This document shows positions 1,917 through 31,961 of a DNA stretch of 37,648 nucleotides, one piece after another. Location: the NCBI GenBank assembly GCA_964500865.1, contig CAZCQJ010000004.1:21377-59024 (forward strand), written 5' to 3'. The notes beneath the pieces were generated by a model. The model saw only the letters and a program-made list of their open reading frames with translations, did no database searches and was not told the DNA's origin. Source of the DNA: an uncultured Bdellovibrionales bacterium. GTDB lineage: Bacteria; Patescibacteriota; Minisyncoccia; Moranbacterales; UBA1568. A program made the position numbers and the translations under genes. Positions within the stretch are counted from its first letter, which is position 1; every line of letters begins with the position of its first letter.

Positions 1917-3329
1917 ATGCAGCTCCACAATACGCTTGCCAAGAACAAACAAGAATTTACACCGATTCACAAGGGTAAGGTGGGGCTCTATACCTGTGGG
2001 CCAACCGTGTATGACTTCGCGCATATCGGTAACTGGCGTGCCTATATTTTTGCCGACACTCTGCGCCGTGTTTTAGAATTCAGCGGTTACGAAGTACGTC
2101 ACATAACAAACATTACCGACGTTGGCCACCTAACTGCCGATGACATTGCCCAGGGCGACAGCGGTGATGACAAAATTATCAAAAAAGCACTGGCCGAAAA
2201 AAAGACTCCGTCAGAGATCGCCGACTTTTACGAAGACTATTTTCATAGTGGCAGCGCGGCGCTTAATATTCTACCCTCGCACTACTACCCACGGGCCACA
2301 GCCCATATCCCACAGATTATTAAGATGGTCGAAGAGCTGATCGAAAATGGCCACGCCTACGTGGTAAACGGCGCCGTGTTTTACGACGTCACCAGTTTTA
2401 CTGCCTACGGAAACCTCTCAGGGAACACCCTCGAAAACCTGAAAAATGGCGCCCGCCTCGAGGAGCACCCCGACAAAAGAAACCCCTGGGATTTTGCCCT
2501 GTGGCTCCCCGCCCCCAAAGAGCACCTGATGCGCTGGCAGAGCCCTTGGAGCGAAGGCTACCCTGGCTGGCATATAGAATGTAGCGCTATGAGCCAGGAA
2601 TACCTGGGTGACATTTTTGATATCCATACCGGTGGCGAAGATCATATCTTCCCCCACCACGAAGCCGAAATCGCCCAAACGTGCGGTGTCACGCATAAGC
2701 AGATAATGGCCAACTTTTTTGTTCACCTGCGGCATAAGCTGATCGATGGACAAAAGATGAGTAAATCGAAAGGCAACTTTTACACCCTCGAAGACATTTA
2801 CGCCAAGGGTTTTGACGCCATGGATTTACGTATGGTTTTTCTGCAAGCCAACTACCGCAGCCAGATGAACTTTACCTGGGAATCGCTCGAGCAAGCCCAG
2901 AAGAATAAGCTGTCCCTTTTTGCAGTCGCTGCCCGCCTCGGTGTACTGAAAGTCACCGAACGCCTCGGTGAACGCGGAGTAACGAGTGCCCGACTCGCAC
3001 CGCTCCTCGAGGCACTCCAAGATGACCTCAATACTCCTTTGGCACTCGCGCTGGCGCTCGAACTAGCCACCGAAGACAACAAGTCCCTCGATGCCAGAGA
3101 AGCAGCTACTACCGAGCAGCGTACTCTGTGGCAGGCCATTTTCTTCCTCTTTGGGCTTCGCTACGAACCGCTCGTTATCCCAGAGGCCGTAACCGCTTTG
3201 GCTGAGGCACGCCAAGCTGCTCGGGCTGCCAAAGACTTTGCCGAAAGCGATGCTTTGCGTGACCAAATCGCTGCCGCCGGCTACTGTGTTAAATATACCG
3301 CCACTGGCTACGAAATTACCAAACTCTAG
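1917..3329 (+). CDS. cysS: cysteine--tRNA ligase
   Basis: Has the class I HIGH motif (FAHIGN) and KMSKS, and an N-terminus typical of CysRS (GLYTCGPTVYD). Length is 470 aa. Confidence 0.95.
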   Translation: MQLHNTLAKNKQEFTPIHKGKVGLYTCGPTVYDFAHIGNWRAYIFADTLRRVLEFSGYEVRHITNITDVGHLTADDIAQGDSGDDKIIKKALAEKKTPSEIADFYEDYFHSGSAALNILPSHYYPRATAHIPQIIKMVEELIENGHAYVVNGAVFYDVTSFTAYGNLSGNTLENLKNGARLEEHPDKRNPWDFALWLPAPKEHLMRWQSPWSEGYPGWHIECSAMSQEYLGDIFDIHTGGEDHIFPHHEAEIAQTCGVTHKQIMANFFVHLRHKLIDGQKMSKSKGNFYTLEDIYAKGFDAMDLRMVFLQANYRSQMNFTWESLEQAQKNKLSLFAVAARLGVLKVTERLGERGVTSARLAPLLEALQDDLNTPLALALALELATEDNKSLDAREAATTEQRTLWQAIFFLFGLRYEPLVIPEAVTALAEARQAARAAKDFAESDALRDQIAAAGYCVKYTATGYEITKL

Positions 3330-3330
3330 A

Positions 3331-3373
3331 TAATACAAAAAACTACTCGGCCCCCATTTGGGAACCGAGTAGC
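3331..3373. repeat. copy 1 of the conserved 3' cassette flank (contains the terminator hairpin)
   Basis: 3333-3369 is identical to 4033-4069 (37 nt). Confidence 0.9.
3336..3372 (-). terminator. rho-independent terminator of cassette gene 1; it also abuts the cysS stop codon
   Basis: Perfect 8-bp stem CTACTCGG/CCGAGTAG (3343-3350 / 3365-3372), followed on the minus strand by TTTTTTG. Confidence 0.75.
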
Positions 3374-3384
3374 GAGTAAACAAC

Positions 3385-3963
3385 CTAGATAAAGCGACGC
3401 ACAATAAAGCGACGCTGTTTTGTGATGAATATCTCATCCCCTGGTAGACAGATCCTCAGATATCGACGCACAAGCGATACGTCGTGTTGCTCTTCAAAAA
3501 AGTAGCAACTCCCTACCAAAAGGTCCTCCTGAAAATACACAGTGACATCTTGCTGTGTCGCTTTTACGATATCCGCGGGTGTCTCAGTGGGTAACTGCCA
3601 GGGACGACATGGAGCTTCTTTTTCGATGCGCACCGTTTCTGGCTGATAGAGGCACGCTTCAAGTACAAGGAATACGTCCATGAAATAGCCAAGTTTATGG
3701 ACGGGTTGTTCTGCTCCACAGAGTTTCTCAAGGATCCGCCATTCTGGGATACTGACTAAATCGCTTTCGAAATCATAGATAGAAAAGTAATGTGGAATAT
3801 TTACGCCAGTAAACTTCTCTTCACCCAGCAACTTGTTCACAATGGAACGATCCGCACCAGGGATTAGCGTAATGTCTCGCAGCACATCTCGTGGCTTCAG
3901 CCATCTGCACTTAGGGAAAATAGTAAAATCACCCCGGTGCAGCAACTTAAATTCCTGTGACAT
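3385..3963 (-). CDS. hypothetical protein, cassette paralog 1 (no recognised domain)
   Basis: The track ORF is 3385..3975. The second ATG (3961-3963) has a GGAGAG Shine-Dalgarno 6 nt upstream and marks the exact end of the conserved flank. It is a distant paralog of 4095..4643. Confidence 0.7.
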   Translation of the reverse strand: MSQEFKLLHRGDFTIFPKCRWLKPRDVLRDITLIPGADRSIVNKLLGEEKFTGVNIPHYFSIYDFESDLVSIPEWRILEKLCGAEQPVHKLGYFMDVFLVLEACLYQPETVRIEKEAPCRPWQLPTETPADIVKATQQDVTVYFQEDLLVGSCYFFEEQHDVSLVRRYLRICLPGDEIFITKQRRFIVRRFI

Positions 3964-4030
3964 CTCACTCTCCATTGTTAAGTTTACGTTAGGCTTACTC
4001 TAGGCTTTTTTTCGTGCTCTGTCAATCGTA
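3961..4030. repeat. copy 1 of the conserved 5' cassette flank (promoter, 5'UTR, SD and ATG)
   Basis: 64 of 70 positions are identical to 4641-4710. Confidence 0.9.
3997..4025 (-). promoter_or_regulatory. sigma70-like promoter of cassette gene 1 (TTGACA-17 nt-TAGAGT)
   Basis: On the reverse complement, TTGACA is at 4020-4025 and TAGAGT at 3997-4002, with a 17-nt spacer. Confidence 0.6.
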
Positions 4031-4073
4031 CTATACAAAAAACTACTCGGCCCCCATTTGGGAACCGAGCAGC
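4031..4073. repeat. copy 2 of the conserved 3' cassette flank
   Basis: See 3331-3373. Confidence 0.9.
4036..4072 (-). terminator. rho-independent terminator of cassette gene 2
   Basis: Same hairpin as at 3343-3372. The single difference (4070 C) gives a G-U wobble in the minus-strand RNA and would be an A-C mismatch in the plus sense. A T-tract follows on the minus strand. Confidence 0.7.
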
Positions 4074-4094
4074 AGGGCAGACCACTGAGACCGA

Positions 4095-4643
4095 TTAGAC
4101 TGATGCAATAAAGAGGCGCTGCTTACGTGGCATATAGTGATCATCACCAATACCACGAGTACCGATGCGATAATAAAACTCTTCCTCTCCAGGTAGAGCA
4201 TCCTCTTCTATGCAGTATTCGATATCGACTGCATATACCACCATCCCAATCTGCACATAAAACGTATTCACTGAGTCTTCTTCTTCAAGAAGAACCCCGT
4301 GCAAACCATTGCGATGTGCCCAATAAATAAGAAGTGGTTCCCAGGGTGCCATGAAGCGCCCTCTTGGAAATAGTCTCATCTTCTCCCATTCCATGGGTCC
4401 ACGAACAAGTGTCTTTTGAGCAATATCAAAAAAGTCATATTGCCTTTGGGTCCGAATAGAAAGGTACACGCGATTAAGAGTATGCATTACTCGCTCATCA
4501 AACTCATCGCTTGAATAGAGCGGGAACTTTGCCCGCTGCCAAAAAAACATACGCGGAGAAAAGAATGACGTTCTTGGGTTTTTACGAAAAAATGTAAAGG
4601 TGCCCTGATGATGAATATCTCGCAGTGTCATAGTCCGCTTCAT
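4095..4643 (-). CDS. hypothetical protein, cassette paralog 2 (no recognised domain)
   Basis: The track ORF is 4095..4655, and the same SD/second-ATG argument applies as for paralog 1. It shares only short motifs with paralog 1 (HQGTFTFFRK, YDF...MEW, LPGEEEF...KQRLFI). Confidence 0.7.
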   Translation of the reverse strand: MKRTMTLRDIHHQGTFTFFRKNPRTSFFSPRMFFWQRAKFPLYSSDEFDERVMHTLNRVYLSIRTQRQYDFFDIAQKTLVRGPMEWEKMRLFPRGRFMAPWEPLLIYWAHRNGLHGVLLEEEDSVNTFYVQIGMVVYAVDIEYCIEEDALPGEEEFYYRIGTRGIGDDHYMPRKQRLFIASV

Positions 4644-4710
4644 CTCACTCTCCATAGTTAAGTTTACGTTAGCCTTACTCTAGGCTTTTTTTCGTGTCCT
4701 GTCAATGATA
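4641..4710. repeat. copy 2 of the conserved 5' cassette flank
   Basis: See 3961-4030. Confidence 0.9.
4677..4705 (-). promoter_or_regulatory. sigma70-like promoter of cassette gene 2 (TTGACA-17 nt-TAGAGT)
   Basis: On the reverse complement, TTGACA is at 4700-4705 and TAGAGT at 4677-4682. Confidence 0.6.
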
Positions 4711-4837
4711 AAGAACTTCTATTATCTACTGTGCTGTCCACAACTTACGCACAACTGGGTCAAATGAGGCGCTTCCCCCAGTAGCCAAAGCACGCTATAC
4801 TAGAAAGACAAATTCTTACTTTTTGACCCCGCTTTCT

Positions 4838-6202
4838 ATGGCCAAGCAATCCCTCGAGCACCTCCGCGTTCCACCCCACAGCCTCGAAGCCGAAATGTCA
4901 CTTTTGGGCTCTATTATGCTCGACAAAGACGCCATTATTAAGGTGGCCGACCTCGTACGTCCGGGTGATTTCTACAAAGAGGACCACAACTTTATTTACG
5001 AAACCATCCTCGAGCTCTACGAGAAGCGCGAGCCGATCGACGTGCTTTCGCTTTCGAACCGTATCGATGAAAAAAAACGTCTTGACGACGTAGGTGGCTC
5101 GAGCTACTTGGCGAGCCTTGTTAACTCGGTCCCGAGTGCCAGTAACATCGCTCACTACGCTAAGCTCGTTCAGCGTAAGGCGCTTTTGCGCCGCCTCATT
5201 GGCGCTGCCTCGAGTATCGTTGAAATGGGCTACGACGAAAGCGAAGATGTACAAAAAGTCCTCGACGAAGCCGAACAGAAACTCTTCGCGGTGTCTCAAA
5301 AATACATTAAGCAGGACTTCATCCCCATTAAATCTGTTTTGGAAACCGCCTTCGAACGCATCGATGAGCTCCACAAGAGCGATCAAAGTTTCCGTGGTAT
5401 TCCCTCAGGCTTTCCAGACCTCGACAACATGCTGGCTGGCTTCCAAAAATCAGATCTCCTTATTCTGGCCGCTCGTCCTTCAGTGGGTAAAACAACCTTT
5501 GCTCTTGATCTCGCACGTCAAATAGGACTCCACGCCAAGGTACCCGTGGGTATCTTCTCGCTCGAAATGGGTGCCGACCAGCTGGTCGACCGTATGCTCG
5601 CTGCTCAGTCTGGTGTTGACCTGTGGCGCCTTCGTACTGGTAAGCTCTCGAGCGAGGGGCCAGGGAACGACTTCGAGCGTATCTCGGACGCGATGGGTTC
5701 TCTTTCAGAAATCCCCCTCTTTATCGATGACTCGGGGTCGCTCAACATTATGGAAATGCGTACCATGGCACGACGTCTGCAGGCCGAGCATAACCTGGGT
5801 ATGATTATCGTCGACTACCTCCAGCTGATGGAAGGCCGCTCACGCAGTGGCGATAACCGCGTACAAGAAATCTCCGAAATTTCTCGTGGACTCAAGCAGC
5901 TGGCCCGCGAACTCAACATTCCTATCATTGCCCTCTCGCAGCTGTCTCGTGCGGTAGAATCACGTCCAGACCAGGTACCGAAGCTCTCTGACCTCCGCGA
6001 ATCGGGTTCTATTGAGCAGGATGCCGACGTGGTTATGTTCCTCTACCGTGAGGACCGCGTGAAGCCAGATACGCCAAACAAAAACATTGTTGATGTGATT
6101 ATCGCCAAGCACCGTAACGGTCCAGTTGGAAAAATCTCGCTCTACTTCGAGGACAATGCCACCACCTTTAAGTCTCTTGAACGCGTACGAAGCGACGACT
6201 AG
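4838..6202 (+). CDS. dnaB: replicative DNA helicase DnaB
   Basis: Contains PPHSLEAEMSLLGSIMLD at the N-terminus, Walker A (ARPSVGKT), and RecA-like C-terminal motifs. The track ORF starts at a TTG at 4823; the first ATG is at 4838. Confidence 0.95.
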   Translation: MAKQSLEHLRVPPHSLEAEMSLLGSIMLDKDAIIKVADLVRPGDFYKEDHNFIYETILELYEKREPIDVLSLSNRIDEKKRLDDVGGSSYLASLVNSVPSASNIAHYAKLVQRKALLRRLIGAASSIVEMGYDESEDVQKVLDEAEQKLFAVSQKYIKQDFIPIKSVLETAFERIDELHKSDQSFRGIPSGFPDLDNMLAGFQKSDLLILAARPSVGKTTFALDLARQIGLHAKVPVGIFSLEMGADQLVDRMLAAQSGVDLWRLRTGKLSSEGPGNDFERISDAMGSLSEIPLFIDDSGSLNIMEMRTMARRLQAEHNLGMIIVDYLQLMEGRSRSGDNRVQEISEISRGLKQLARELNIPIIALSQLSRAVESRPDQVPKLSDLRESGSIEQDADVVMFLYREDRVKPDTPNKNIVDVIIAKHRNGPVGKISLYFEDNATTFKSLERVRSDD

Positions 6203-6793: not shown

Positions 6794-6825
6794 TATAGAA
6801 AATTAAAAATAAGCGAAAAGAGAGG

Positions 6826-6858
6826 AAGGGCTGCCGCGAGCGTATCGCAGCAGCCCTT
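6826..6858. terminator. bidirectional terminator hairpin between convergent recR and the 64-aa gene
   Basis: 9-bp stem AAGGGCTGC/GCAGCCCTT. A T-rich run follows on the minus strand. Confidence 0.6.
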
Positions 6859-6883
6859 TATGCAGTCTCCATAATCGACGGAT

Positions 6884-7078
6884 TTATCGGCGAATCCGCT
6901 TGATCCCTTTGCGGGTGACGGCGAATCGCCCACCGTAGAAATGGTATCCTGGCTTTTGGATCTTCTTGGCGAGCTTCTTCATGCCCGGGAAACGATGTTC
7001 CTTTACCCATTTGGGCAAGGGAGCGCGCGGAGCCGACGAAGCATTAATCTTATCACAGAGATCCTTCATCTTGTTCAT
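6884..7078 (-). CDS. 64-aa basic hypothetical protein
   Basis: AAAGGAG SD lies about 10 nt upstream of the ATG. The gene has its own promoter (7177-7205) and terminator. No family recognised. Confidence 0.55.
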   Translation of the reverse strand: MNKMKDLCDKINASSAPRAPLPKWVKEHRFPGMKKLAKKIQKPGYHFYGGRFAVTRKGIKRIRR

Positions 7079-7176
7079 CTCTCAGTCTCCTTTCTTTTCT
7101 AGAGCCACTTTTCTAACTAGGAGATAGCCTTCGAACTTTTTACGGTGTCCATCGAGCCATTCTCCTTGGTGCCTTC

Positions 7177-7205
7177 ACCATACGCCCGAAAGAAAATAAA
7201 GTCAA
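7177..7205 (-). promoter_or_regulatory. sigma70-like promoter (TTGACT-17 nt-TATGGT) for the 64-aa gene
   Basis: On the reverse complement, TTGACT is at 7200-7205 and TATGGT at 7177-7182. This leaves a 5'UTR of about 95 nt. Confidence 0.45.
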
Positions 7206-7224
7206 ACGCTCTTCAATAGAAAAG

Positions 7225-7252
7225 AAAAAATCCCTCGTGTAAGGGATTTTTT
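7225..7252 (-). terminator. rho-independent terminator after rplU (A-tract/T-tract flanks make it potentially bidirectional)
   Basis: AAAAAATCCCT-cgtgta-AGGGATTTTTT. Confidence 0.7.
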
Positions 7253-7269
7253 GGGGTGAACTTTTTGGA

Positions 7270-7572
7270 TTAACCAATCTTGATAATTTCGAGCTGAGTG
7301 TATGGTTGACGGTGTCCAAAGCGAGTCAACTGACGCTTCTTCGCCTTAAACTTAATACCTGTTACCTTATCGTGACGTCCTTCGGCAACCACTTTGGCTT
7401 CAACGGTTTTGGTAAGCACAGGAGTTCCTACTTCAACCTGGTTCTCATCTCCGATAAATAGAGTTTCGAGCTGCAACACATCACCAACAGCAGCGGTCAA
7501 GCGCTCTACTTTAATTTTCTGGCCAGCAGCAACTTTGTATTGCTTACCACCAGTACGTACAATTGCAATCAT
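7270..7572 (-). CDS. rplU: 50S ribosomal protein L21
   Basis: MIAIVRTGGKQYKVAAGQKIKVERL... is typical of L21. Length is 100 aa. Confidence 0.95.
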   Translation of the reverse strand: MIAIVRTGGKQYKVAAGQKIKVERLTAAVGDVLQLETLFIGDENQVEVGTPVLTKTVEAKVVAEGRHDKVTGIKFKAKKRQLTRFGHRQPYTQLEIIKIG

Positions 7573-9664: not shown

Positions 9665-11689
9665 TTATTCAGTGATTTCGGTAAGCGTAATTTTCTCCAC
9701 ATTCCCAGGAATCCGCTTCAGGGCCCAGGACGGCCGAAAGGTTACCTCAAGATTCTTTACTTCTGGGTGTTTCTCGGTAACAAGAGTGAGCTGACTTGCT
9801 GACTTCCCAGCTAAGTCCTGTTTAAGGGTAGCAGCATTTAGTACGGCTACAAGCGAAGCATCAAGATGTGCTTTAAGCGAAGCGGTTCCTGCCTTTTCAT
9901 CTACGGTAAAATCGGTGAATGAGAGCTTCTGCTCCTTTGGAGCGAAAGTAATACCGTCGTAGTCTGTCTTCATGTTCTTTACCAGAAGCTTTTTGACGTC
10001 AGCTACATTGACCGTGTAGGCGGTCACTTTGTAGACTGCTGTATACGTATAATCTCCTGGAACCGAATTTGCCTTGGGCATATTTTGTTCAGAAACCATC
10101 TCGGTTACCAGGCCATCAGTAAAGGTATATTTTTCCGATCGCTCATCGTTCGTAATGCCATCAGTAAACTGAGTCTTAGCTGTTTCGGCTGCTCGTGAAC
10201 GAAGTGTTTCTTCATCAGCACGAATAAACGTAGCGCCGCTACCACTGGTAGCAACCGTTTGTCCTTCACCCCCTGTAATTTCTGTGGCAACCGTAGCGCT
10301 AAACTTCGCATACTTATCACTCCCTTTGAATCCAGGAATTGTGAATGTATCGCTACTCTTATTGTATTCGCTTCCACTCTTATCAGCAGAGACTTCTGCA
10401 GTAACACTACCGTTCCCCGGTACCGTTGTAGCCTTAGTGAGGCGATACACCTTTCCATCACTTGCCTCGAACCGTGTGGTTGAAACTAGTGTTTGTGCTT
10501 CACTACTGTAACTATTGGTAATGGTAAGTGTTCCCTTAGCCCGCCCGGCGACTGCGCTACTGCCCGCAACAGTACTTGGTGCACCACTTGCAATACCTGG
10601 AATACTCACACTTACTTCTTCTGTTCTTTTTTGTAAAGTAATATCACCACCACCCGTAAGTAACACGGTGTACGACTGATCGACAGCATCTTCTACAGTC
10701 TGAGCAACTACCTTTACTTCGGCTGATGGTAAGGTAAGAAACAAGAAAACCGCGATGCTCGTAAGAATCACTAAGGCCCCGAAGATAAAAAGTGCTAAAC
10801 GGAGCGTGCGACTTGCGGGTACATTGACGGGCGCTACCACTGACTCCTTCGGCGTAAAAGCGGTTTCCTGAGTAGCAAATACACCCCTTGCAGGCTTACC
10901 ACCCGCTGGATTCAATGGGGCAAAATCATGCACGGGTGGTTTTTTATGTTCTGGCGCGGCTGCCGGCATATCAGAAAAGTGCCTACTAGTCCCGAAAGGC
11001 ATCTCGTTTGCTGGTGGCACTTCTCGTGGAGCCACTTCTTCTACTATTCCATCGTCAACCTGAACTACCTGCTGACGTGCCTTTTCTGCTTCTTGGAAGC
11101 GTACTGAGTTTAGTCCTGGTGGTCGCTCTGGTGTGGCATTGCGAATCCGGAGTGTAGTTGTGGCAGCTGCAGCAGTAACTGGTGCTGCTACCTCTGAAGA
11201 CTCTTCCACAGCAGATTCCACTACCTGTTCTGCTGGCGCAGTAATATCCCCTATCTTTTTTGCTAGCGGCGCAGTATCTTCTCGAATGACATGAAACGTA
11301 CTACTCCCTATGTCGGCACTGCGTGGTCGGGCAATTGTAAGACTTTCGTCTGGGACAACCTGTGCCGCGACCTCTGGTGCTGCTATAGGCGCCTCAAAAG
11401 CACTCCCCGAAAACAAGTAGTTCTTCTGCTCAAAATCCTGCGTGTAAGGTAACGTACTAAACCCAAGTTTCTCTGCCAGACTCCGCGCGTTCTCGCTCTG
11501 ACTCACGATGATCATTTTCTTCTGTAATTTTTCTCCTTCGCGCGCGAGAAGCTTAAGGTTAATGATACTCTGCGTAACAGCAGACGTTTTTGGAAACACC
11601 AAAGTAACTTCAGATTCTTCCATGCTTCGCAAGCGAGCAATCACCGAGATAATCTCCTCGTCCGGAGCAATGTAAAGTGGGTGTACCAT
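9665..11689 (-). CDS. hypothetical bitopic membrane protein: small N-terminal cytoplasmic domain, A/P/E/V-rich linker, one TM helix and a Thr/Ser-rich extracytoplasmic domain
   Basis: 674-aa ORF with TM segment LRLALFIFGALVILTSIAVFLFLTL. It starts 5 nt after the ftsA-like stop. No family recognised. Confidence 0.7.
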   Translation of the reverse strand: MVHPLYIAPDEEIISVIARLRSMEESEVTLVFPKTSAVTQSIINLKLLAREGEKLQKKMIIVSQSENARSLAEKLGFSTLPYTQDFEQKNYLFSGSAFEAPIAAPEVAAQVVPDESLTIARPRSADIGSSTFHVIREDTAPLAKKIGDITAPAEQVVESAVEESSEVAAPVTAAAATTTLRIRNATPERPPGLNSVRFQEAEKARQQVVQVDDGIVEEVAPREVPPANEMPFGTSRHFSDMPAAAPEHKKPPVHDFAPLNPAGGKPARGVFATQETAFTPKESVVAPVNVPASRTLRLALFIFGALVILTSIAVFLFLTLPSAEVKVVAQTVEDAVDQSYTVLLTGGGDITLQKRTEEVSVSIPGIASGAPSTVAGSSAVAGRAKGTLTITNSYSSEAQTLVSTTRFEASDGKVYRLTKATTVPGNGSVTAEVSADKSGSEYNKSSDTFTIPGFKGSDKYAKFSATVATEITGGEGQTVATSGSGATFIRADEETLRSRAAETAKTQFTDGITNDERSEKYTFTDGLVTEMVSEQNMPKANSVPGDYTYTAVYKVTAYTVNVADVKKLLVKNMKTDYDGITFAPKEQKLSFTDFTVDEKAGTASLKAHLDASLVAVLNAATLKQDLAGKSASQLTLVTEKHPEVKNLEVTFRPSWALKRIPGNVEKITLTEITE

Positions 11690-22374: not shown

Positions 22375-23691
22375 CTACTTCTCCAGGCTCTTTAGTACCT
22401 CGACTGCTTTGTCGTACTGCGGATCACGTTTGGCGTTAAAGTCATCCCTCGTAAGGCCTACTTTTTCGTCTGGGGAAATTCCAACCTTGTTAATCTGATT
22501 TCCCTTTGGCGTCAGCCAGCGGGCCACCGTAATCTTTACCGAAGTATCTTTCGAAACCGGGATAAGCTCCTGGACCGAACCTTTTCCGAACGAAGTCTCA
22601 CCCACAATGCGTACGTTATCTTTATTTTCACGCAGGGCACCAGCCAGGATTTCCGAAGCACTGGCGCTCCCCTGGTTAATCAGGATAATAATAGGTGACT
22701 TGATAGCGAGGTCATGAGCCTCTGATTTGAGCTGAATACGATTTGCCTGAGCGTCTTCTTCTTGCACTACCACCGTACCAGCCGGCAGAAAATAGCTCGC
22801 CAGGTCTACCGCTTCCGTCAGGAGTCCTCCAGGATTATTACGAAGATCGAGAATAATTCCCTTAGTACTAGTATCAGCAGCTACTTTTTGAATAGCCTCC
22901 TCAAACTCTTTTCCTGTGTCTTCACCAAAACGACTCACGCGGAGGAGCTGAATACCGTCACCCTTACTTTCCAAGCGAACACTCTTTACCAAAATAGTGC
23001 CACGGCGTACGGTAATGTCGTGAGTTGTCTCCTCACCCTCTGAGTACAGCGTTAAGGTAACATTAGTATCCTTTGGACCACGAATCTTATCGACTGCCTG
23101 CTCGAGCGTAAGCGCTTCGGTAGATTCTCCATTTACTTTAAGTACCCTATCGCCAGCGCGTACGCCAGCAGCCTCAGCCGGCATACCTTCGAGTGGTGCC
23201 ACAATAGTAATCATGCCATCACGTAGTGCCATTTCGGCCCCAATCCCCTCGAATACGCCCTGTATATCTTCCTGAAAAGATTTTTGTTCTTGTGGGGTAA
23301 AGAAAGTAGTGTATGGGTCGCCACTGGCCTCGAGCATACCTTTAATGGCGCCGTAAAAAAGCTTCTGGGCATCGAGATTCTCGTGGTCAACATATTTTTG
23401 GCCCAGCAAGTCCCAGACTTTCCAAAAAAGTGAGAAGTCAATACGTTTGCCAGCGTCCGTCCCTGAAAAGTTTACTTCTCGCGGATTCAGAATATCCCCA
23501 CTTCCGTTACCACTCTTTTCTGAAGCATGTTTTTCGTACAGGTACCCCCCACTAAAACCAATGATTAAAATAATAAGGGCTGATAAAAACTGACTCTTCT
23601 GCGGAAACGCACGAGTCATTCTATTTGTTACCTGACCATCAATACCAGATTCAAGTGCTTCTTGTTTTTGTTCGTGTGTTTCTTCAGACAT
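22375..23691 (-). CDS. S41-family carboxyl-terminal processing protease with a PDZ domain
   Basis: Has an N-terminal TM helix, a PDZ domain (GDRVLKVNGES) and the catalytic region LINQGSASASEILAGAL. Confidence 0.9.
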   Translation of the reverse strand: MSEETHEQKQEALESGIDGQVTNRMTRAFPQKSQFLSALIILIIGFSGGYLYEKHASEKSGNGSGDILNPREVNFSGTDAGKRIDFSLFWKVWDLLGQKYVDHENLDAQKLFYGAIKGMLEASGDPYTTFFTPQEQKSFQEDIQGVFEGIGAEMALRDGMITIVAPLEGMPAEAAGVRAGDRVLKVNGESTEALTLEQAVDKIRGPKDTNVTLTLYSEGEETTHDITVRRGTILVKSVRLESKGDGIQLLRVSRFGEDTGKEFEEAIQKVAADTSTKGIILDLRNNPGGLLTEAVDLASYFLPAGTVVVQEEDAQANRIQLKSEAHDLAIKSPIIILINQGSASASEILAGALRENKDNVRIVGETSFGKGSVQELIPVSKDTSVKITVARWLTPKGNQINKVGISPDEKVGLTRDDFNAKRDPQYDKAVEVLKSLEK

Positions 23692-23694
23692 GAC

Positions 23695-24540
23695 TTATAT
23701 ATTTCGTGGATTTTTTTTATGACGGTACTTCCAAAAATACTTTACCGCACTCTCTATATGGTACCACGTTAGCCTGTTCGATAGCAGTGCTCGAATCACG
23801 CCTCCACGAGCACTCCCCTTAGCATGATAATGATATATAGTAACTTCCGGATAATACACTACCGAAAGTCCTACCTCCCAAAAACGTCGACACCAATCGA
23901 CGTCCTCCATATACATAAAGAAGTGTTCGTCCATGAGACCTACTTTTTCGAGTGCCCTGTCGCGTTCCACAAACAAAGCGGAGCCCATTACCCAATCAAC
24001 TTCAGTTGGCTTCGTGAATGATTCTGAATCTAGCGTAAACCAGGCAATATGTTTTTTACCCCACGGAGTTTTTCCTAAAAATGTGCGTCTGTACACAATG
24101 GTCATCGGATGATAAAAACGAAAAGCGGATTTTTGTGGCGAACCATTAAAATGCAGCTGACGTGGAGAAACTATTCCTACCGAAGGATTCTCACAGAGAA
24201 AGTCTCTGAGTACCTCAATGACTCCCTCTGTTAGGAGTACATCGCTATTAATTGCTAGCACGTATTTCCCTCTTGCCTCTAGAAGCGAGGTATTGAATAA
24301 GTGCTTAAAGCCAACATTCTCGGTAAACGGAAAAAAGCGCACTTCCGGAAACTCCTGCGCCATCAAAATCCGCGTGTCATCTTCGGTTGCCGAGTCACAT
24401 ACCAATACCTCGTAGTCGAGGGTTGACGTGACCATTGCCTTTTGAATTGACTGCAAACACTGCCGGAGTAATCCCGGGTTCTTGTAGCCATTAATTGCTA
24501 TGGTTACCTCTTTTGAAACAGGTTGGTGAGCGTGAATCAC
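23695..24540 (-). CDS. glycosyltransferase family 2
   Basis: GT-A fold with DSATEDD, an acidic motif MEDVDW, and rhamnosyltransferase-like length (281 aa). Confidence 0.8.
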   Translation of the reverse strand: MIHAHQPVSKEVTIAINGYKNPGLLRQCLQSIQKAMVTSTLDYEVLVCDSATEDDTRILMAQEFPEVRFFPFTENVGFKHLFNTSLLEARGKYVLAINSDVLLTEGVIEVLRDFLCENPSVGIVSPRQLHFNGSPQKSAFRFYHPMTIVYRRTFLGKTPWGKKHIAWFTLDSESFTKPTEVDWVMGSALFVERDRALEKVGLMDEHFFMYMEDVDWCRRFWEVGLSVVYYPEVTIYHYHAKGSARGGVIRALLSNRLTWYHIESAVKYFWKYRHKKNPRNI

Positions 24541-24548
24541 AAGAAATA

Positions 24549-25757
24549 CTATTGAAGCGAATTACGGAAGAGCTCTTGAATTTTCTGGTAGTTGTCTCCT
24601 ACTGGCAACAATATATATCCATGTTCTTTGGTAACCTCAGGAGCATACAACAGACTCCTTGGGCCATCGGCGTCGAGCACCTCGTTCTTTGGCTTTACGT
24701 CACCTGTCTCTCTGTACAGATCATAAAAACGCTTCATCTCCCATCCCTGAAGATTCATCTCCACATTGTCTCCGAGCGTCTGAAGAAGCGCATTAATACG
24801 GCCAAAGTCAGAGACCGTACCAACCGAAAGCGCCTTGTTCTTTATCGATTCAATTACCTGCTGCTGACGCTTCGCGCGCTCAAAATCGTTCGTCTGGTAA
24901 CGGGCACGAGCATAACAAAGAGCCTTGTCACCATCGAGTTTATTTACCCCTGCAGGAAGGGAAAATTCACCTCCACATTCAACGTTCTTGTTGTAACAGA
25001 GCGGATAGGACTTTGCAATATAGCGAGTACCGTTTTTCCGGGTATAGTATTTGTGCTCGTACTGAACAGGATTTGTTGGGACGGTGAACACATACGAATC
25101 ACATACCTGCGGCTCCTGAAACTGCACTCCTTCCGTAAACGGCTCTTCGAGGGTGACCTCTACTCCGTCAAGTGCGTTTACAAGATCTTTAAACCCCTGA
25201 AAGTTAATTTTCACAGCGTATGGGATCTTCTGTCCGGTAATCTCTCCAACCACCGTCTGCATAGCTTCCATTCCACTGCCCTTTCCCTTTTCTTCTCCAA
25301 GAGCATGCACCGCGTTAATCTTACGCTGCTCATTAGTGCCTGGCACTGTTACATACAAATCTCGTGGAATAGAAATGATCGAAGCTTTTGCAGTGTCTTG
25401 ATCGTTTTGTTTCGGATGGAGCGATACTACCATGATGGTATCAGCGAGCGTTCCCCCATTTGGATCATCAGCTCCACGCATACCCAAGAGCAAGATATTA
25501 ATACGGCCCTCATCCTCCCCCTCAAGTTTACTCCCTACTCCGGGAAGCGAACGCACGAGGCTCGATAAAATATTTGCATTTCCACCAGTAATCTTATGGA
25601 GAACATATCCTGTCTTCACAGCAAAAAAACCTCCAAAAAGAAGAAAAAAAACACCGAGGCCGATAAGGATCTTTCCCCAACGCTTTTTATACCAGCGGTC
25701 CACACTCTCGTGTTTTTGAAGGGTCCTGTGTACTACTTTTCGATCAAATTTTTGCAT
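24549..25757 (-). CDS. LytR-CpsA-Psr (LCP) family glycopolymer transferase
   Basis: Has an N-terminal TM helix, then INILLLGMRG...ADTIMVVSL...SIPRDLYV. Confidence 0.88.
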   Translation of the reverse strand: MQKFDRKVVHRTLQKHESVDRWYKKRWGKILIGLGVFFLLFGGFFAVKTGYVLHKITGGNANILSSLVRSLPGVGSKLEGEDEGRINILLLGMRGADDPNGGTLADTIMVVSLHPKQNDQDTAKASIISIPRDLYVTVPGTNEQRKINAVHALGEEKGKGSGMEAMQTVVGEITGQKIPYAVKINFQGFKDLVNALDGVEVTLEEPFTEGVQFQEPQVCDSYVFTVPTNPVQYEHKYYTRKNGTRYIAKSYPLCYNKNVECGGEFSLPAGVNKLDGDKALCYARARYQTNDFERAKRQQQVIESIKNKALSVGTVSDFGRINALLQTLGDNVEMNLQGWEMKRFYDLYRETGDVKPKNEVLDADGPRSLLYAPEVTKEHGYILLPVGDNYQKIQELFRNSLQ

Positions 25758-25775
25758 AAAAATACTCTTCTTGCC

Positions 25776-26930
25776 TTACCGTTTATTCTCACCTGCAAGC
25801 CAACTATATTCTTTGGCTAACTTGGTAGCGCTTAACGACCAAGAAAAACGCTTAATACAAGCCTTAACATGTTCCTCTGCTCGCTTGGGCGCAACAGAAG
25901 TACTATACAAGATTTCGGCGGTTTTTGCAACGTTATCTAGTGGAAAATATGTAACACATTCGCCACCAACTTCGCGGTGCACTAGAGTATCCGAAGCTAC
26001 CACACGTACGCCCTGACTTAATGCTTCGAGCAACGGGAGTCCGAATCCTTCGTAGAGTGACGGAAATGCAAAAAGCTCTGCTCCCGCATATATAAGCGAC
26101 AAATCTTCTGCAGCAATGTATCCCGGAAAAATAACGCTCGACTGCAAACCTAACCGAGTAATCACTTCATCAATACGAGTATCGAAGTGATGTCCGTCTC
26201 GGCGACCCACGAGCACCAACTTTACTTCTGGGTGACTTGCTCTTACTGCTGCAAAAGTTTCTAAAAGGAACGGTATATTTTTACGCGGCTGAAGAGTCCC
26301 TACGTAGAGCCAGTAGACCTTGGGCAACCCGTAACGCTTTTTTATCTCTCCTATGACGCGCTCATCTTTCACTAGCAGTTGCTGAAAATCATCTGCCAGG
26401 GCATTATGAATCACCGTAATGTGCTCAGGTGGTACAGCATACACCTCGGTGATTTCTTGCTTCGTAAATTCTGAAGGCGTAATAATGTGGGCCCGTCGCA
26501 AGGTACGTGGAATCAGAAGCCACAAGAAAAACCGGTCCTTAAGACCAATCAGTTTTGGGTACCGAGCAAAAGAAATGTCATGAATATGCGCTGCAACAGT
26601 GAGTTTTTTAGGCAGCCAAAATGGCAGAATGTACTGCGTGTGCAAGACGTCGATATCTTTCCGTTTTCGTAAAAAGAGCGGGAGTGTGACTGCGTTCCAC
26701 CAAAACCGATTCTGCGGACCAAAATTCTCTATACGTACCCAGGTCATTTCTTCTGTAACTCCAAGTCGCGTCATTGCCTCGGCTAATTCTTTCTCGGTCT
26801 TGTTGGTTAAAAGTATATACCGGTGCTCTCGATGCTCAGCCACAAGTTTTTTGGTAAGCTCAAAAAAAACGGTTTCATCGCCGGTGCGTTTGTTCCCAAT
26901 TACTCGAATATCAATTGCTACTGTCGCCAT
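25776..26930 (-). CDS. glycosyltransferase family 4 (GT-B)
   Basis: Contains PSLYEGFGLPLLEALSQGVRVVASD (EX7E region). Confidence 0.85.
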   Translation of the reverse strand: MATVAIDIRVIGNKRTGDETVFFELTKKLVAEHREHRYILLTNKTEKELAEAMTRLGVTEEMTWVRIENFGPQNRFWWNAVTLPLFLRKRKDIDVLHTQYILPFWLPKKLTVAAHIHDISFARYPKLIGLKDRFFLWLLIPRTLRRAHIITPSEFTKQEITEVYAVPPEHITVIHNALADDFQQLLVKDERVIGEIKKRYGLPKVYWLYVGTLQPRKNIPFLLETFAAVRASHPEVKLVLVGRRDGHHFDTRIDEVITRLGLQSSVIFPGYIAAEDLSLIYAGAELFAFPSLYEGFGLPLLEALSQGVRVVASDTLVHREVGGECVTYFPLDNVAKTAEILYSTSVAPKRAEEHVKACIKRFSWSLSATKLAKEYSWLAGENKR

Positions 26931-28528: not shown

Positions 28529-28532
28529 AGAA

Positions 28533-29687
28533 TTATCCTTTCTTTGTATTGTACCCCATAACTTCTTTCGTGAACTGCTCCCAACGAAACTGCTTCGCAA
28601 AGAGCTTGCGAGCAGCCCTTACTTCTGGTGATTCTTGGGCACTCGCTGCAAAAGCTGCCTCGAGAGATTCTCGTGTTAGGGCTTTCACGTGAGTCGTCAC
28701 GGCGCCACCCACTTCTTTAAGCGAAGAGTTATCCAGCGTAAGTGTTGCCGTCCCCTGACTGAGCGCTTCGAGTACCGGCATACCAAAACCCTCGTAGAGC
28801 GACGGGAATACAAAAAGCCGAGCTCCAGCATACAGCGCAGGTAAATCTTCTGTTGGCACAAATCCCAAAAGCTTCACGCTGTCTGTCAAACCAAGTTCTT
28901 TAATTAGCTCCGTTACATGAGTAGCTAGTGTATTTTTTGAACCATGAAGCTTTCCCGAAAGCACGAGAGTTGGCACATTTTCTGTAGCTTCTTTCCAGAA
29001 TTTATAGACCCGTAGAAGTCCGTCTATATTTTTGCGTATTTCAAAACCTCCCCCGGTATACAAGTACCCCGGCGTAAGCTGGTATTTGCTCAGCGTGTCT
29101 GCTTCGTACCCTTGGCTATGCTCCATAAAAAAGAGCGGGTTAATACTCGGGTACGCTACCGTAATATTTTCGGGTGGCAATAAAAGAAGTTCCACTATGT
29201 CATTTTTGGTTGCCTGCGAAACCGCTACTACTGCACCTGCCTTACAGATAGCCCGCTTCGTAAGAGACCAGTGTATTTTTTGACGCCAGTTTCCCCGGTA
29301 TGCCGGAAACCTCTCCGGGATCATATCATGCACCACCATCGTATGCCGCACTATTTTTGGAAGCACGGTAACACACTGATAGAGGGAGATAAAATGCGCT
29401 ACCCTGTATTTCTTTACCGCCAGCGGCAACTGCAGGTATTCCCACAGAAACTTCCGGATAAGATCATCGCGCTGCCACCAAGGACGTAACACTACAAAGG
29501 TAATACCTGGTAGCTCCTCATCGGCCAAGGCCACCCGCTCATCGGTAAAAATAAGTATCGTCGCTGGTGACACTTCCTTCGTATTCGCAGCAGCCAGGGT
29601 GCGCAGAAAAAACAAGGTTACCTCGCCAATGCCGGTACCTGGTTTCCGTAAAAAGAGGCCGTTAATGCCTATTGTAGATATATCCAT
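28533..29687 (-). CDS. glycosyltransferase family 4 (GT-B)
   Basis: Contains PSLYEGFGMPVLEALSQGTATL. The likely start is MDISTIGINGLFL (ATG 29685-29687), 8 nt after a -10 box. Confidence 0.85.
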   Translation of the reverse strand: MDISTIGINGLFLRKPGTGIGEVTLFFLRTLAAANTKEVSPATILIFTDERVALADEELPGITFVVLRPWWQRDDLIRKFLWEYLQLPLAVKKYRVAHFISLYQCVTVLPKIVRHTMVVHDMIPERFPAYRGNWRQKIHWSLTKRAICKAGAVVAVSQATKNDIVELLLLPPENITVAYPSINPLFFMEHSQGYEADTLSKYQLTPGYLYTGGGFEIRKNIDGLLRVYKFWKEATENVPTLVLSGKLHGSKNTLATHVTELIKELGLTDSVKLLGFVPTEDLPALYAGARLFVFPSLYEGFGMPVLEALSQGTATLTLDNSSLKEVGGAVTTHVKALTRESLEAAFAASAQESPEVRAARKLFAKQFRWEQFTKEVMGYNTKKG

Positions 29688-29695
29688 ATACAGCC

Positions 29696-29723
29696 AGTAT
29701 ACCAGCATTTTTCCTATTGACAA
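29696..29723 (-). promoter_or_regulatory. sigma70-like promoter (TTGTCA-16 nt-TATACT) for the minus-strand glycan operon; near-leaderless
   Basis: On the reverse complement, TTGTCA is at 29718-29723 and TATACT at 29696-29701. The ATG lies 8 nt downstream of the -10. Confidence 0.5.
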
Positions 29724-29745: not shown

Positions 29746-29826
29746 CGGCTGTTGAGTTGCTTTCCGCACCTTAACGGTTTTTTGGGGATATTTCCCCCTA
29801 ATCGCGCAACAACAGGAGGATTTCTC

Positions 29827-31952: not shown

Positions 31953-31961
31953 TCCAACTCT

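What the first reader, a model, noticed from the sequence alone, without database searches (positions are those of the whole stretch)
3331..4710. Two tandem gene cassettes with near-identical regulatory flanks and almost unrecognisably diverged coding sequence
Two minus-strand genes (3385..3963 and 4095..4643) sit between cysS and dnaB. Their 5' regions, 3961-4030 and 4641-4710, match at 64 of 70 positions. Each 5' region contains a TTGACA-17 nt-TAGAGT promoter, the whole 5'UTR, a GGAGAG Shine-Dalgarno and the ATG. Their 3' regions share a 37-nt identical core (3333-3369 = 4033-4069) that folds into an 8-bp-stem terminator. Nucleotide homology stops abruptly at the start codon and resumes only in the last few codons. 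The proteins share only scattered motifs: HRGDFTIFPK/HQGTFTFFRK, YDF...(P/M)EW, and LPG[DE]E.F...KQR.FI. Regulatory DNA conserved far better than the ORF it controls is the reverse of the normal pattern. This points either to cassette exchange by recombination at conserved flanks, or to strong diversifying selection on the ORF. Such patterns are typical of immunity, defence or host-interaction paralog arrays. The single stem difference (3370 T versus 4070 C) is a G-U wobble only in the minus-strand RNA, which supports hairpin function in that orientation. I recognise no domain in either protein.
Basis: partly seen in the sequence, partly recalled or inferred. Interest (0 to 1): 0.7.

Follow-up and report, generated by a model that had tools for sequence, protein, structure and literature searches.

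The report
Swappable orphan-gene cassettes in Moranbacteria
Two small genes of unknown function sit side by side in an uncultivated Candidatus Moranbacteria genome, each with its own near-identical promoter and terminator, and comparison with related genomes shows that these shared flanks act as homology arms through which very different versions of the gene are swapped, stacked or lost.

Summary
Window 3961-4030 matches 4641-4710 at 64 of 70 positions, and 3333-3373 matches 4033-4073 at 40 of 41. The two ORFs between them share about 20-27% amino-acid identity and their synonymous sites are saturated. They are distant homologues (hhalign 95.7%, E 1e-8) in a tiny orphan family of about a dozen proteins. 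No Pfam, PADLOC, PHROGs, NCBIfam, PDB or Foldseek match was found.

Every member with genomic context lies in one chromosomal slot, dnaB|cysS, in Candidatus Moranbacteria. Relatives carry A only, B only, or B+A, all with the same promoter, leader and terminator. A contig 96-98% identical to the window has a 52%-identical A allele. Identity collapses from codon 17 to the stop codon, where dS is 1.66 against 0.04-0.17 in neighbouring genes.

This indicates cassette exchange by homologous recombination at the conserved flanks. It resembles minimal mobile elements or idiomorphs and is not in-place diversifying selection (omega 0.12-0.41). The genes are dispensable: frameshifted, IS-disrupted and absent copies all occur. 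Their function is unknown. A conflict or immunity role is only an inference. The pattern is a new example of a known evolutionary kind. Interest is moderate.

The parts
1917..3329 (+). cysS (cysteinyl-tRNA synthetase). This is the conserved right-hand border of the slot and converges on cassette A. Its last ~60 nt carry 4-5 substitutions private to the window.
   Evidence: The ORF is listed. The ortholog in L002 hits Pfam tRNA-synt_1e and CysS_C. The private substitutions are visible in the five-genome alignment.
3333..3373 (-). Intrinsic terminator of cassette A. The hairpin spans 3342-3373 with a 14-bp stem that includes two G.U pairs and an AAAU loop, followed by a U6 tail. This is the 3' homology arm.
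   Evidence: The core is identical in the 8 copies where it is fully present, and in the part of the L003 copy on its contig (exact-match counts).
3385..3963 (-). Gene A, allele class A1, 192 aa. It encodes a soluble, acidic orphan protein. Codons 1-16 belong to the shared 5' arm. Codon 17 to the stop is the hyper-divergent core.
3964..4030 (-). Promoter and leader of cassette A: -35 TTGACA at 4025-4020, -10 TAGAGT at 4002-3997, an unstructured ~27-nt leader, and Shine-Dalgarno GGAGAG at 3973-3968. This is the 5' homology arm.
4033..4073 (-). Intrinsic terminator of cassette B. It is the same hairpin as in cassette A, with one A-U pair changed to G.U. It abuts the promoter of cassette A, and this point is the tandem junction.
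4095..4643 (-). Gene B, allele class B, 182 aa. It is a distant homologue of A with the same predicted beta-alpha-alpha-beta-alpha-alpha-beta4 layout. It has a hypervariable patch at 4561-4600 (codons 18-27).
4644..4710 (-). Promoter and leader of cassette B: -35 at 4705-4700, -10 at 4682-4677, and Shine-Dalgarno GGAGAG at 4653-4648. A palindrome AGCCT-N6-AGGCT spans the -10 hexamer.
4838..6202 (+). dnaB (replicative helicase). This is the conserved left-hand border of the slot and is transcribed divergently from cassette B.

Best explanation
The two genes are alternative versions (allele classes A and B) of one orphan, lineage-restricted protein family. In a subclade of Candidatus Moranbacteria (Patescibacteria/CPR) this family always occupies the chromosomal slot between dnaB and cysS.

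Each version is a self-contained monocistronic unit:
- a sigma-70-type promoter;
- a short unstructured leader with a GGAG ribosome-binding site;
- an ORF of about 185 aa;
- a strong intrinsic terminator.

Within the closely related genomes, all versions share two stretches: the promoter, leader and first 16 codons on one side, and the terminator on the other. The ORF core exists in at least three deeply diverged classes (A1, A2, B) whose synonymous sites are saturated.

The shared stretches work as homology arms. Recombination in them replaces one core by another between genomes. This is shown by the window and L001. Recombination between arms of neighbouring or incoming units produces tandem (B+A) or single (A-only, B-only) states. 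This step is inferred.

The near-identity of the two flank pairs in the window therefore reflects continuing recombinational homogenisation, together with purifying selection on a working promoter and terminator. It does not reflect a recent duplication, nor selection acting only on the ORF. DNA probably enters by natural transformation. This is inferred, because competence has been shown only in another Patescibacteria group.

The proteins are soluble, acidic alpha/beta proteins without a recognisable domain or fold. They evolve several-fold faster than their neighbours and are dispensable. My best guess, which is inference only and has roughly a one-in-four chance, is an accessory conflict-type role such as immunity or defence. 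Old allele classes in such a role would be kept by balancing or frequency-dependent selection.
For: Observation.
- The flank repeats are real and unique to this locus.
- The promoter and terminator are predicted on the minus strand. The hairpin folds at -25.4 kcal/mol with z = -5.4, and the leader is unstructured.

Homology and family size.
- The A and B profiles align over their full length (hhalign 95.7%, E 1e-8).
- The family is tiny: 6 clusters among 1.84 billion representatives and 10 proteins among 5.8 billion.

The slot.
- Every member with context lies next to dnaB and/or cysS: L001, L002, L003, L004, L005, L086, L087/L088, L089, L090, L093.
- The states observed are A only (L002), dnaB next to A (L003), B only with the same flanks (L087/L088), and B+A (window, L001).

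Allele replacement.
- The window and L001 are 96-98.4% identical over about 8 kb. There is no nucleotide match from window 3912 to 3383.
- Sliding identity falls from 95-100% to about 55% between roughly 3920 and 3375, then returns to 97%.
- dS of gene A between the window and L001 is 1.66. For dnaB, recR and alaS it is 0.17, 0.11 and 0.04. Gene B has dS 0.157, which fits vertical descent.
- In A1-versus-A2 comparisons the first 16 codons have dS 0.10-0.40 and the rest is saturated (dS 2.0 or not computable).
- The A allele of L001 groups with that of L002 (dS 0.52) even though the L001 genome groups with the window.
- The window carries private substitutions in the last 60 nt of cysS. This suggests that the imported tract runs past the terminator.
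- The B allele of L087 ends in the A-type 3' sequence GCGCTGAAT, which is a mosaic.

Flank homogenisation.
- Paralogous flanks within a genome differ at 2-4 of 66 positions. This is no more than orthologous flanks differ between species (5-6 of 66).
- One site (GTAAAC versus GTACAC) agrees between the two copies within each genome.
- In more distant genomes the unit keeps its architecture but has unrelated promoter and terminator sequences, so the sequence itself is not functionally fixed.

Dispensability.
- The same 1-nt frameshift occurs in two assemblies (L087, L088), and restoring one T gives a full ORF.
- L093 has an IS-type insertion truncating the gene.
- The slot is empty in L009 and holds unrelated ORFs in L007 and L010.

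Other.
- Omega is 0.12-0.41, against 0.09 or less in neighbouring genes.
- Natural competence in Patescibacteria is reported in PMC10633639.
Against: - All sequences are metagenome contigs. The claim that one background carries two alleles rests on two assemblies. A chimeric join at the shared arms cannot be excluded without the reads.
- Only about a dozen sequences exist. This rules out formal recombination or phylogenetic-incongruence tests, site-model dN/dS, and any test for balancing selection.
- The data do not separate inter-genomic exchange from intra-genomic gene conversion plus differential loss as the source of the flank identity.
- Purifying selection on the promoter and hairpin alone could account for part of the conservation.
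- Competence and recombination have not been shown in Moranbacteria.
- The functional guess has no direct support. There is no partner gene, no domain and no fold match. The structure models are of low to moderate confidence (pLDDT 46 for A, 70 for B).
Confidence: 0.7

Rival explanations
1. An ancient tandem duplication (B then A) was followed by concerted evolution. Intragenomic gene conversion keeps only the promoter/leader and terminator alike, while selection keeps the ORFs apart. A-only and B-only genomes arose by deletion between the direct repeats.
For: - The tandem junction is identical in the window and L001.
- One flank site (GTAAAC versus GTACAC) agrees between the two copies within each genome.
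- Direct repeats of 66 and 41 nt would allow loop-out deletions that leave exactly the observed single-copy states.
- Both types are old. Divergent A-type and B-type genes are found in more distant genomes.
Against: - This cannot explain the A1 to A2 replacement in a 96-98% identical background, where dS is 1.66 against 0.04-0.17 in neighbours. That still needs an import from another lineage.
- It needs several independent losses.
- It overlaps with the main explanation, since both rely on recombination in the flanks, and the present data do not fully separate the two.
Confidence: 0.2
2. A recent local duplication was followed by very fast in-place divergence of the ORFs under diversifying (positive) selection, while the flanks stayed as they were.
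For: - dN is raised: omega is 0.41 for B between the window and L001, against 0.09 or less for neighbours.
- B has a patch with 8 non-synonymous changes in codons 18-27.
Against: - Synonymous sites between A and B are saturated (pS 0.80), as are those between A1 and A2 (pS 0.67-0.73). The flanks differ by only 2-9%.
- Positive selection does not speed up synonymous change.
- Omega is below 1 in all pairs.
- Single-copy genomes carry either type with the same flanks.
Confidence: 0.03
3. The pattern is a metagenome assembly artefact. Contigs from co-occurring related species were joined at the shared promoter or terminator sequence, creating a false tandem or a false allele in a given background.
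For: - The shared arms hold exact matches of 37 nt and more between cassettes and between species, which short-read graphs can mis-thread.
- One JGI sample (3300045394) contains both a B-only contig and an A-type contig.
Against: - The B+A tandem with the same junction was assembled independently in the window and in JGI contig L001.
- Single-copy loci are spanned from dnaB to cysS in one contig, in L002 and L087.
- Even if one contig were chimeric, the existence of A1, A2 and B cores behind identical flanks in closely related genomes would remain.
Confidence: 0.05
4. The flanks are a generic intergenic repeat (REP- or MITE-like), or site-specific recombination sites of an integron-like cassette system.
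For: The terminator is an imperfect inverted repeat at each cassette boundary. IS elements are seen in the slot in L089 and L093.
Against: - There are no further copies in the window or in about 90 fetched Patescibacteria loci outside this slot, and none in IMG/VR or the metagenome collection.
- No integrase or recombinase gene lies in the neighbourhood.
- The cassettes carry their own promoters, unlike integron cassettes.
- The replacement breakpoints fall in extended homology (codon ~17 and the terminator/cysS end), not at a fixed core site.
Confidence: 0.02

Closest known systems
Minimal mobile elements (MMEs) of Neisseria (Saunders & Snyder 2002; Snyder et al. 2007; definition quoted in PMC3082526)
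   Same: A fixed slot lies between two conserved genes (dnaB and cysS). Different genomes hold different whole-gene cassettes there. The cassettes are exchanged by homologous recombination, with no mobility gene of their own.
   Different: - The alternative cassettes here are distant homologues (allele classes of one family), not unrelated genes.
- The homology arms include the cassette's own promoter, leader, first 16 codons and terminator, which also allows cassettes to stack in tandem.
- The host is an uncultivated CPR bacterium in which transformation has not been shown.
Idiomorph-like or allelic-replacement loci with a hypervariable core between conserved flanks, for example the Staphylococcus aureus agr specificity groups and pneumococcal mosaic loci (from my own knowledge, not tested here)
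   Same: Discrete, deeply diverged allele classes are older than the species that carry them. They sit at one locus with sharp identity breakpoints and are exchanged by recombination in the conserved flanks.
   Different: The function and the interaction partner are known for those systems. Here they are unknown, and two classes can co-occur in tandem.
Orphan immunity-gene arrays of polymorphic toxin systems (CDI, Rhs, T6SS) (from my own knowledge)
   Same: Both involve small, soluble, fast-evolving, highly diverse cytoplasmic proteins arranged in tandem, with repeated conserved inter-cassette sequence that promotes recombination.
   Different: No toxin gene or toxin C-terminal fragment is adjacent. 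There is no match to any immunity family in Pfam or to PADLOC models. Each gene has its own promoter and terminator.
Integron gene cassettes
   Same: Both are modular single-gene units bounded by a repeated imperfect inverted repeat, and both are stackable in tandem.
   Different: There is no intI integrase and no attC core sites. The cassettes carry their own promoters. The breakpoints lie in extended homology, not at a specific site.
Concerted evolution of non-coding flanks in tandem paralogues by gene conversion
   Same: Flanks within one genome are as similar as, or more similar than, orthologous flanks between species. One site co-varies within each genome.
   Different: Conversion alone does not explain the import of a foreign A core into a near-identical genome.

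Membership tests
Minimal mobile element (MME) | The region is bounded by two genes that are conserved across strains | tested here: met
   dnaB and/or cysS flank the family in every locus with context.
Minimal mobile element (MME) | [quoted passage not shown] | tested here: met
   The observed states are A1, A2, A3, B, B+A, empty, and unrelated ORFs. One caveat applies: most of the alternatives are distant homologues rather than unrelated genes.
Minimal mobile element (MME) | Cassettes are incorporated by homologous recombination, with no mobility genes of their own | tested here: inconclusive
   The breakpoints lie in homologous flanks, and dS of the core is ten times that of the neighbours. 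No integrase or transposase is present in the window locus. The recombination event itself is inferred, not observed.
Integron gene cassette | An attC recombination site and an intI integrase, with promoterless cassettes | tested here: not met
   No integrase lies nearby. Each unit has its own TTGACA-17-TAGAGT promoter. By eye, the hairpin lacks GTTRRRY core sites.
Polymorphic-toxin immunity protein / orphan immunity array | An adjacent toxin gene or toxin C-terminal remnant, or membership of a known immunity family | tested here: not met
   The neighbours are cysS, dnaB, recR and corA. No Pfam hit was found at E up to 10 for any of 12 members beyond two isolated chance-level matches.
Known anti-phage defence systems (PADLOC-DB) | A match to a defence-protein model | tested here: not met
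   Neither protein matched any family at E up to 10.
Phage-derived gene (moron) | Homologues in phage genomes or prophage context | tested here: not met
   PHROGs gave only chance-level hits. No relatives or flank matches were found in IMG/VR. No Foldseek BFVD match reached E <= 0.001. The surrounding genes are housekeeping genes.
Rho-independent (intrinsic) terminator | A G+C-rich hairpin directly followed by a U tract on the transcribed strand | tested here: met
   The stem is 14 bp with 8 G-C pairs, the loop is AAAU, and a U6 tail follows. The fold is -25.4 kcal/mol with z = -5.4, and it is weaker and lacks a T tract on the other strand. Termination itself was not measured.
Sigma-70-type promoter | -35 and -10 hexamers at 16-18 nt spacing upstream of the gene | tested here: met
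   TTGACA-17-TAGAGT matches 10/12 consensus positions in both units and is conserved in all close relatives. Transcription start sites cannot be tested with these tools.
Known RNA family in the flanks (riboswitch, sRNA, leader) | A match to an Rfam covariance model, or a significantly stable leader fold | tested here: not met
   No Rfam match was found at the gathering threshold in the window, or at E <= 1 in 3200-4900. The leader fold has z = 0.08 and -1.06.

The most novel reading that the evidence does not exclude
The dnaB|cysS slot of these Moranbacteria may hold a balanced, trans-species polymorphic recognition or immunity determinant built on a protein fold not yet seen. Allele classes A1, A2, A3 and B would be kept for longer than species lifetimes by frequency-dependent selection, for example from phages, competing epibionts or the host cell. 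They would be shuffled between species by transformation, using the cassette's own promoter and terminator as portable homology arms. This would make the locus the first self/non-self or conflict locus described in this CPR lineage, and a natural marker of gene flow among uncultivated species.
Probability: 0.15. Interest if true: 0.75.

Novelty: new member of a known kind. Interest (0 to 1): 0.42.

Why it matters
- It gives sequence-level evidence that homologous recombination moves genes between uncultivated Candidatus Moranbacteria whose housekeeping genes are about 86-92% identical at the nucleotide level. Recombination and competence have been shown experimentally only in Saccharibacteria.
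- It defines a compact natural 'landing pad': a promoter arm, an exchangeable ORF and a terminator arm between two essential genes. This could guide genetic-tool design for CPR bacteria.
- It flags a very small orphan protein family with old allele classes, fast protein evolution and repeated inactivation. This profile is typical of conflict genes, so the family is a candidate for unknown biology in a group where most accessory genes are unannotated.
- If the function turns out to be mundane, the locus is still a clean textbook example of why regulatory flanks can look more conserved than the gene they control.

Tried and rejected
Domain and structure searches that found nothing.
- Pfam, PADLOC, PHROGs and NCBIfam scans of both proteins and of all 12 family members gave nothing beyond isolated chance-level hits.
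- Profile searches of PDB sequences gave only GLD-2 poly(A) polymerase at E 0.054 for the mixed profile. The subfamily profiles gave nothing. The family lacks the nucleotidyltransferase GS...DxD motif, so I treat this hit as noise.
- The AlphaFold2 model of A was too poor to use (pLDDT 46).
- The model of B (pLDDT 70, pTM 0.69) had no Foldseek match in PDB or BFVD at E <= 0.001 (best 0.24 and 0.033), with TM-scores of at most about 0.33 normalised to the query.

Searches for more members that found nothing.
- The exact terminator pattern in metagenome contigs and in viral contigs gave 0 matches.
- Peptide-pattern scans with the A-type profile in GTDB genomes and with the B-type profile in metagenome contigs confirmed no relatives.
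- Scans of IMG/VR with both profiles found nothing.

Other negative checks.
- The small slot ORFs of more distant Moranbacteria (L007, L010) are not homologous to the family by hhalign.
- Rfam found nothing in the window or in the locus.
- A riboswitch or structured-leader reading is rejected because the leader is unstructured.
- The generic-repeat, integron and phage-moron readings are rejected (see the rival explanations and the membership tests).
- A literature search for hypervariable loci in Moranbacteria found nothing relevant.
Full report
**1. The observation**

On the minus strand, window 3961-4030 and 4641-4710 match at 64 of 70 positions. Window 3333-3369 and 4033-4069 are identical. 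The repeat finder reports them as a 66-nt family at 94% identity (spacing 680 nt) and a 41-nt family at 98% identity (spacing 700 nt). Along the 700-nt diagonal there is no other similarity between the units.

Neither block has a third copy in the 37.6-kb window at up to 3 mismatches, and shuffles give 0 expected matches. Each 5' block contains TTGACA-17-TAGAGT. Each 3' block is a terminator-like hairpin followed by a T run, in both cases on the minus strand.

- It has a 14-bp stem with two G.U pairs and an AAAU loop.
- It folds at -25.4 kcal/mol with z = -5.4.
- The opposite strand folds less well (-18.5 kcal/mol, with an internal loop) and has no T tract.

The leaders have no significant structure (z = 0.08 and -1.06). 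No Rfam family matches.

The ORFs are 3385-3963 (A) and 4095-4643 (B), between cysS (1917-3329) and dnaB (4838-6202). The mechanical ORF list extends both by 'MESE'. Two relatives (L005, L093) read AATAGGAGTTCA(A)GGATG at this point and lack the upstream ATG.

**2. The proteins**

BLASTP finds only the N-terminus (E 0.001). With relatives added, the A-type and B-type profiles align end to end (hhalign 95.7%, E 1e-8). They share these motifs:
- H-x-G-x-F-T;
- W-x-x-P-R;
- an invariant Asp in (Y/F)D(F/I/V);
- E-W;
- Y-(F/V)-Q;
- G-D;
- (K/H)QRxF(I/V).

The two AlphaFold2 models give the same order of secondary-structure elements. A carries an extra ~20-residue insert. Only the B model is usable (pLDDT 70, pTM 0.69). 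It has no convincing Foldseek neighbour in PDB or BFVD.

No Pfam, PADLOC, PHROGs, NCBIfam or PDB-sequence match exists for any member. The proteins are soluble with pI 4.7-7.9, mostly acidic, and have no hydrophobic segment.

The family is extremely small. It comprises 6 clusters among 1.84 billion representative proteins and 10 proteins among 5.8 billion. Further scans of GTDB genomes, metagenome contigs and IMG/VR found nothing.

**3. Organism and locus**

The window's DnaB is 75-79% identical to that of Candidatus Moranbacteria MAGs. The rest of the window is ordinary chromosomal core:
- alaS, rplU, recR and an FtsA-like gene;
- enolase and PGK;
- ScpA/B;
- cell-envelope glycosyltransferases.

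Every family member for which DNA context could be fetched lies in the same slot, next to dnaB and/or cysS.

| Locus | Content of the slot |
|---|---|
| window, L001 | dnaB-B-A-cysS |
| L002 | dnaB-A-cysS |
| L003 | dnaB-A |
| L005 | A-cysS |
| L087/L088 | dnaB-B-cysS |
| L086, L090 | dnaB-B-cysS in more distant genomes |
| L004 | B-cysS |
| L089 | divergent A-type, then an IS200-family transposase gene, then cysS |
| L093 | dnaB-A, cut off by an insertion |

Still more distant Moranbacteria have an empty slot (L009) or unrelated small ORFs (L007, L010).

**4. The flanks across genomes**

All close relatives use the same promoter, leader and terminator sequences, whether they carry A, B or both. 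The terminator core is present in eight copies and in part of a ninth (L003), drawn from six or more genomes. It varies at one position only. The housekeeping genes of these genomes are only 86-92% identical to the window at the nucleotide level.

Outside this slot the two motifs occur in none of the roughly 90 loci held. In the more distant genomes the unit keeps its design of one promoter-like site and one hairpin plus T tract, but with unrelated sequences. The particular sequence is therefore not required for function. This makes recombinational homogenisation a better explanation of its invariance in the close clade than sequence-specific constraint alone.

Flanks of the two cassettes within a genome differ at 2-4 of 66 positions. 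Orthologous flanks between species differ at 5-6 of 66. One site (GTAAAC versus GTACAC) agrees between both copies within each of the two tandem genomes.

**5. The decisive comparison: window versus L001**

The JGI contig L001 is 96-98.4% identical to the window over about 8 kb. There is no nucleotide match between window 3912 and 3383. In 40-nt bins, identity is 95-100% outside gene A apart from the divergent patches in B noted below, about 55% from roughly 3920 to 3375, and 97% again afterwards.

Nei-Gojobori estimates for the window against L001:

| Gene | dS | omega |
|---|---|---|
| A | 1.66 | 0.24 |
| dnaB | 0.17 | not above 0.09 |
| recR | 0.11 | not above 0.09 |
| alaS | 0.04 | not above 0.09 |
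| B | 0.157 (dN 0.064) | 0.41 |

A tenfold excess of synonymous change confined to one ORF cannot come from selection on the protein. It means that one of the two genomes acquired a different, old allele.

Further points:
- In A1-versus-A2 comparisons the first 16 codons have dS 0.10-0.40 and the rest is saturated. The 5' boundary of the exchangeable core is therefore near codon 17.
- The A allele of L001 is close to that of L002 (dS 0.52), a genome only 82-91% identical to the window in blastn alignments of the shared region. The window's allele is closest to that of L003 (81% amino-acid identity, dS 0.73).
- The window has 4-5 private substitutions in the last ~60 nt of cysS compared with L001, L002, L005 and L087. 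This suggests that the window is the recombinant and that the imported tract runs past the terminator.
- The B allele of L087 ends in the A-type 3' sequence GCGCTGAAT, which is a mosaic junction inside the last codons.
- B itself behaves as vertically inherited but fast-evolving. Against L087, with the frameshift repaired, dS is 0.72 and dN is 0.17.
- B has a cluster of 8 non-synonymous changes in codons 18-27 between the window and L001.

**6. Interpretation**

The pattern of flanks conserved better than the ORF is real. It arises because the flanks are shared homology arms of an exchangeable cassette, and the ORF cores are old allele classes (A1, A2, A3, B).

What is shown:
- common flanks around different cores in single and tandem states;
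- a core replacement between near-identical genomes, with breakpoints in the arms.

What is inferred:
- that the exchange proceeds by homologous recombination after DNA uptake (natural competence is documented for Saccharibacteria, PMC10633639);
- that tandem and single states interconvert by recombination between arms;
- that allele classes persist through balancing selection.

The alternative of ancient tandem duplication, flank-restricted gene conversion and differential loss can explain the paralogous flank identity. It cannot explain the A1/A2 replacement. I give it 0.2 as the main source of flank identity.

In-place diversifying selection is contradicted by the saturated synonymous sites and by omega below 1.

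A chimeric assembly cannot be excluded for a single contig. However, the tandem was assembled twice independently, and the single-copy loci are spanned in one contig each.

The generic-repeat, integron and phage-moron readings fail their tests.

**7. Function**

Function is unknown. The units look built for autonomous expression, with a near-consensus promoter, a good ribosome-binding site and a strong terminator.

The genes are dispensable:
- The same 1-nt deletion in a T run splits B in two assemblies from different samples, and restoring one T gives a full ORF.
- An insertion carrying a transposase-like ORF truncates the A-type gene in L093.
- The slot is empty in L009 and holds unrelated ORFs in L007 and L010.

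Fast protein evolution, old allele classes, tandem stacking and repeated loss are the usual signature of conflict genes such as immunity, defence or partner recognition. No partner gene, domain or fold supports any specific role. I put about 0.25 on a conflict-type role and leave the rest open.

**8. Comparison with known systems**

The closest description is the minimal mobile element of Neisseria. This is a slot between two conserved genes that holds different whole-gene cassettes, exchanged by homologous recombination (definition in PMC3082526). Two of its three defining features are met here, and the third is inferred rather than shown.

The locus differs from an MME in three ways:
- The alternatives are distant homologues.
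- The arms are the cassette's own regulatory elements plus 16 codons.
- Cassettes can stack in tandem.

It also resembles idiomorph-like loci with hypervariable cores, such as agr specificity groups, and orphan immunity arrays. Those comparisons rest on my own knowledge. Integron cassettes are excluded.

**9. Verdict**

This is a new example of a known evolutionary kind. It involves a new orphan protein family in an under-studied phylum. Interest is moderate (0.42).

Noticed in passing
L093 780-1500 (JGI 3300045394): A third A-type allele (P0009) sits behind the same promoter. It is cut off at codon 152 by AT-rich foreign DNA. The opposite strand of that DNA carries a Cys-rich transposase-like ORF, so an IS element probably inserted into the cassette. 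The same sample also yields the B-only contig L088.
   Followed up: partly
L087 300-320 and L088 (two JGI samples): The single B-type gene has a T6 run where the window has T7. This splits it into 55-aa and 99-aa ORFs in both assemblies, and restoring one T gives a full 182-aa ORF. It is probably a real pseudogene, though a shared homopolymer sequencing error is possible. cysS in L087 is also called in two pieces.
   Followed up: partly
window 4561-4600 (gene B, codons 18-27): This 40-nt patch is only 62% identical to L001, while the rest of B is about 95% identical. It holds 8 non-synonymous changes in 10 codons. The window resembles L087 here, so L001 carries the odd version. This could be a micro-conversion or a multi-nucleotide mutation event.
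   Followed up: partly
window 4671-4686 (and 3991-4006): A palindrome AGCCT-N6-AGGCT spans the -10 hexamer of cassette B and of both L001 cassettes. On the plus strand it scores as a small hairpin followed by a T run. In the window's cassette A it is broken (AGCCT...AGCCT). It may be an operator or may be incidental.
   Followed up: no
window 3270-3329 (3' end of cysS): The window has 4-5 substitutions that none of L001, L002, L005 or L087 share. This is consistent with an imported tract that extends beyond the cassette into cysS.
   Followed up: partly
L089 1057-1781: An IS200/IS605-type Y1 transposase gene and an 84-aa ORF lie between a very divergent A-type gene (P0012) and cysS. The slot also collects mobile elements.
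   Followed up: no
window 9665-11689: This 674-aa protein has only weak sub-threshold Baseplate_J and GlxA beta-barrel hits and lies next to an FtsA-like gene. Part of it has no nucleotide match to L002 (L002 1152-1817), although the flanking parts are 82-84% identical. It is a second locally divergent segment.
   Followed up: no
window 6800-7270: The small-ORF region between recR and rplU differs between relatives: the called ORF is 74 aa in L001 and 120 aa in L002. It also includes a short stretch where the window-L001 alignment breaks (around window 7001).
   Followed up: no
window 4031-4032 junction; L003 735-750: The tandem junction reads TTTTTTGTAT|AGTACGATTGACA. The tail of the terminator (TTGTA) resembles the sequence just upstream of the -35 hexamer in single-copy relatives (for example L003 CTTGTAGGATTGACA). 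This could be a microhomology that mediated the tandem join. The idea is speculative.
   Followed up: no
window 22375-36149: This is a large cluster of cell-envelope genes: several GT1, GT2 and GT4 glycosyltransferases, a Wzy_C O-antigen-ligase-like protein, LytR_cpsA_psr, UDP-glucose dehydrogenase and an S41 protease. It is unrelated to the finding.
   Followed up: no
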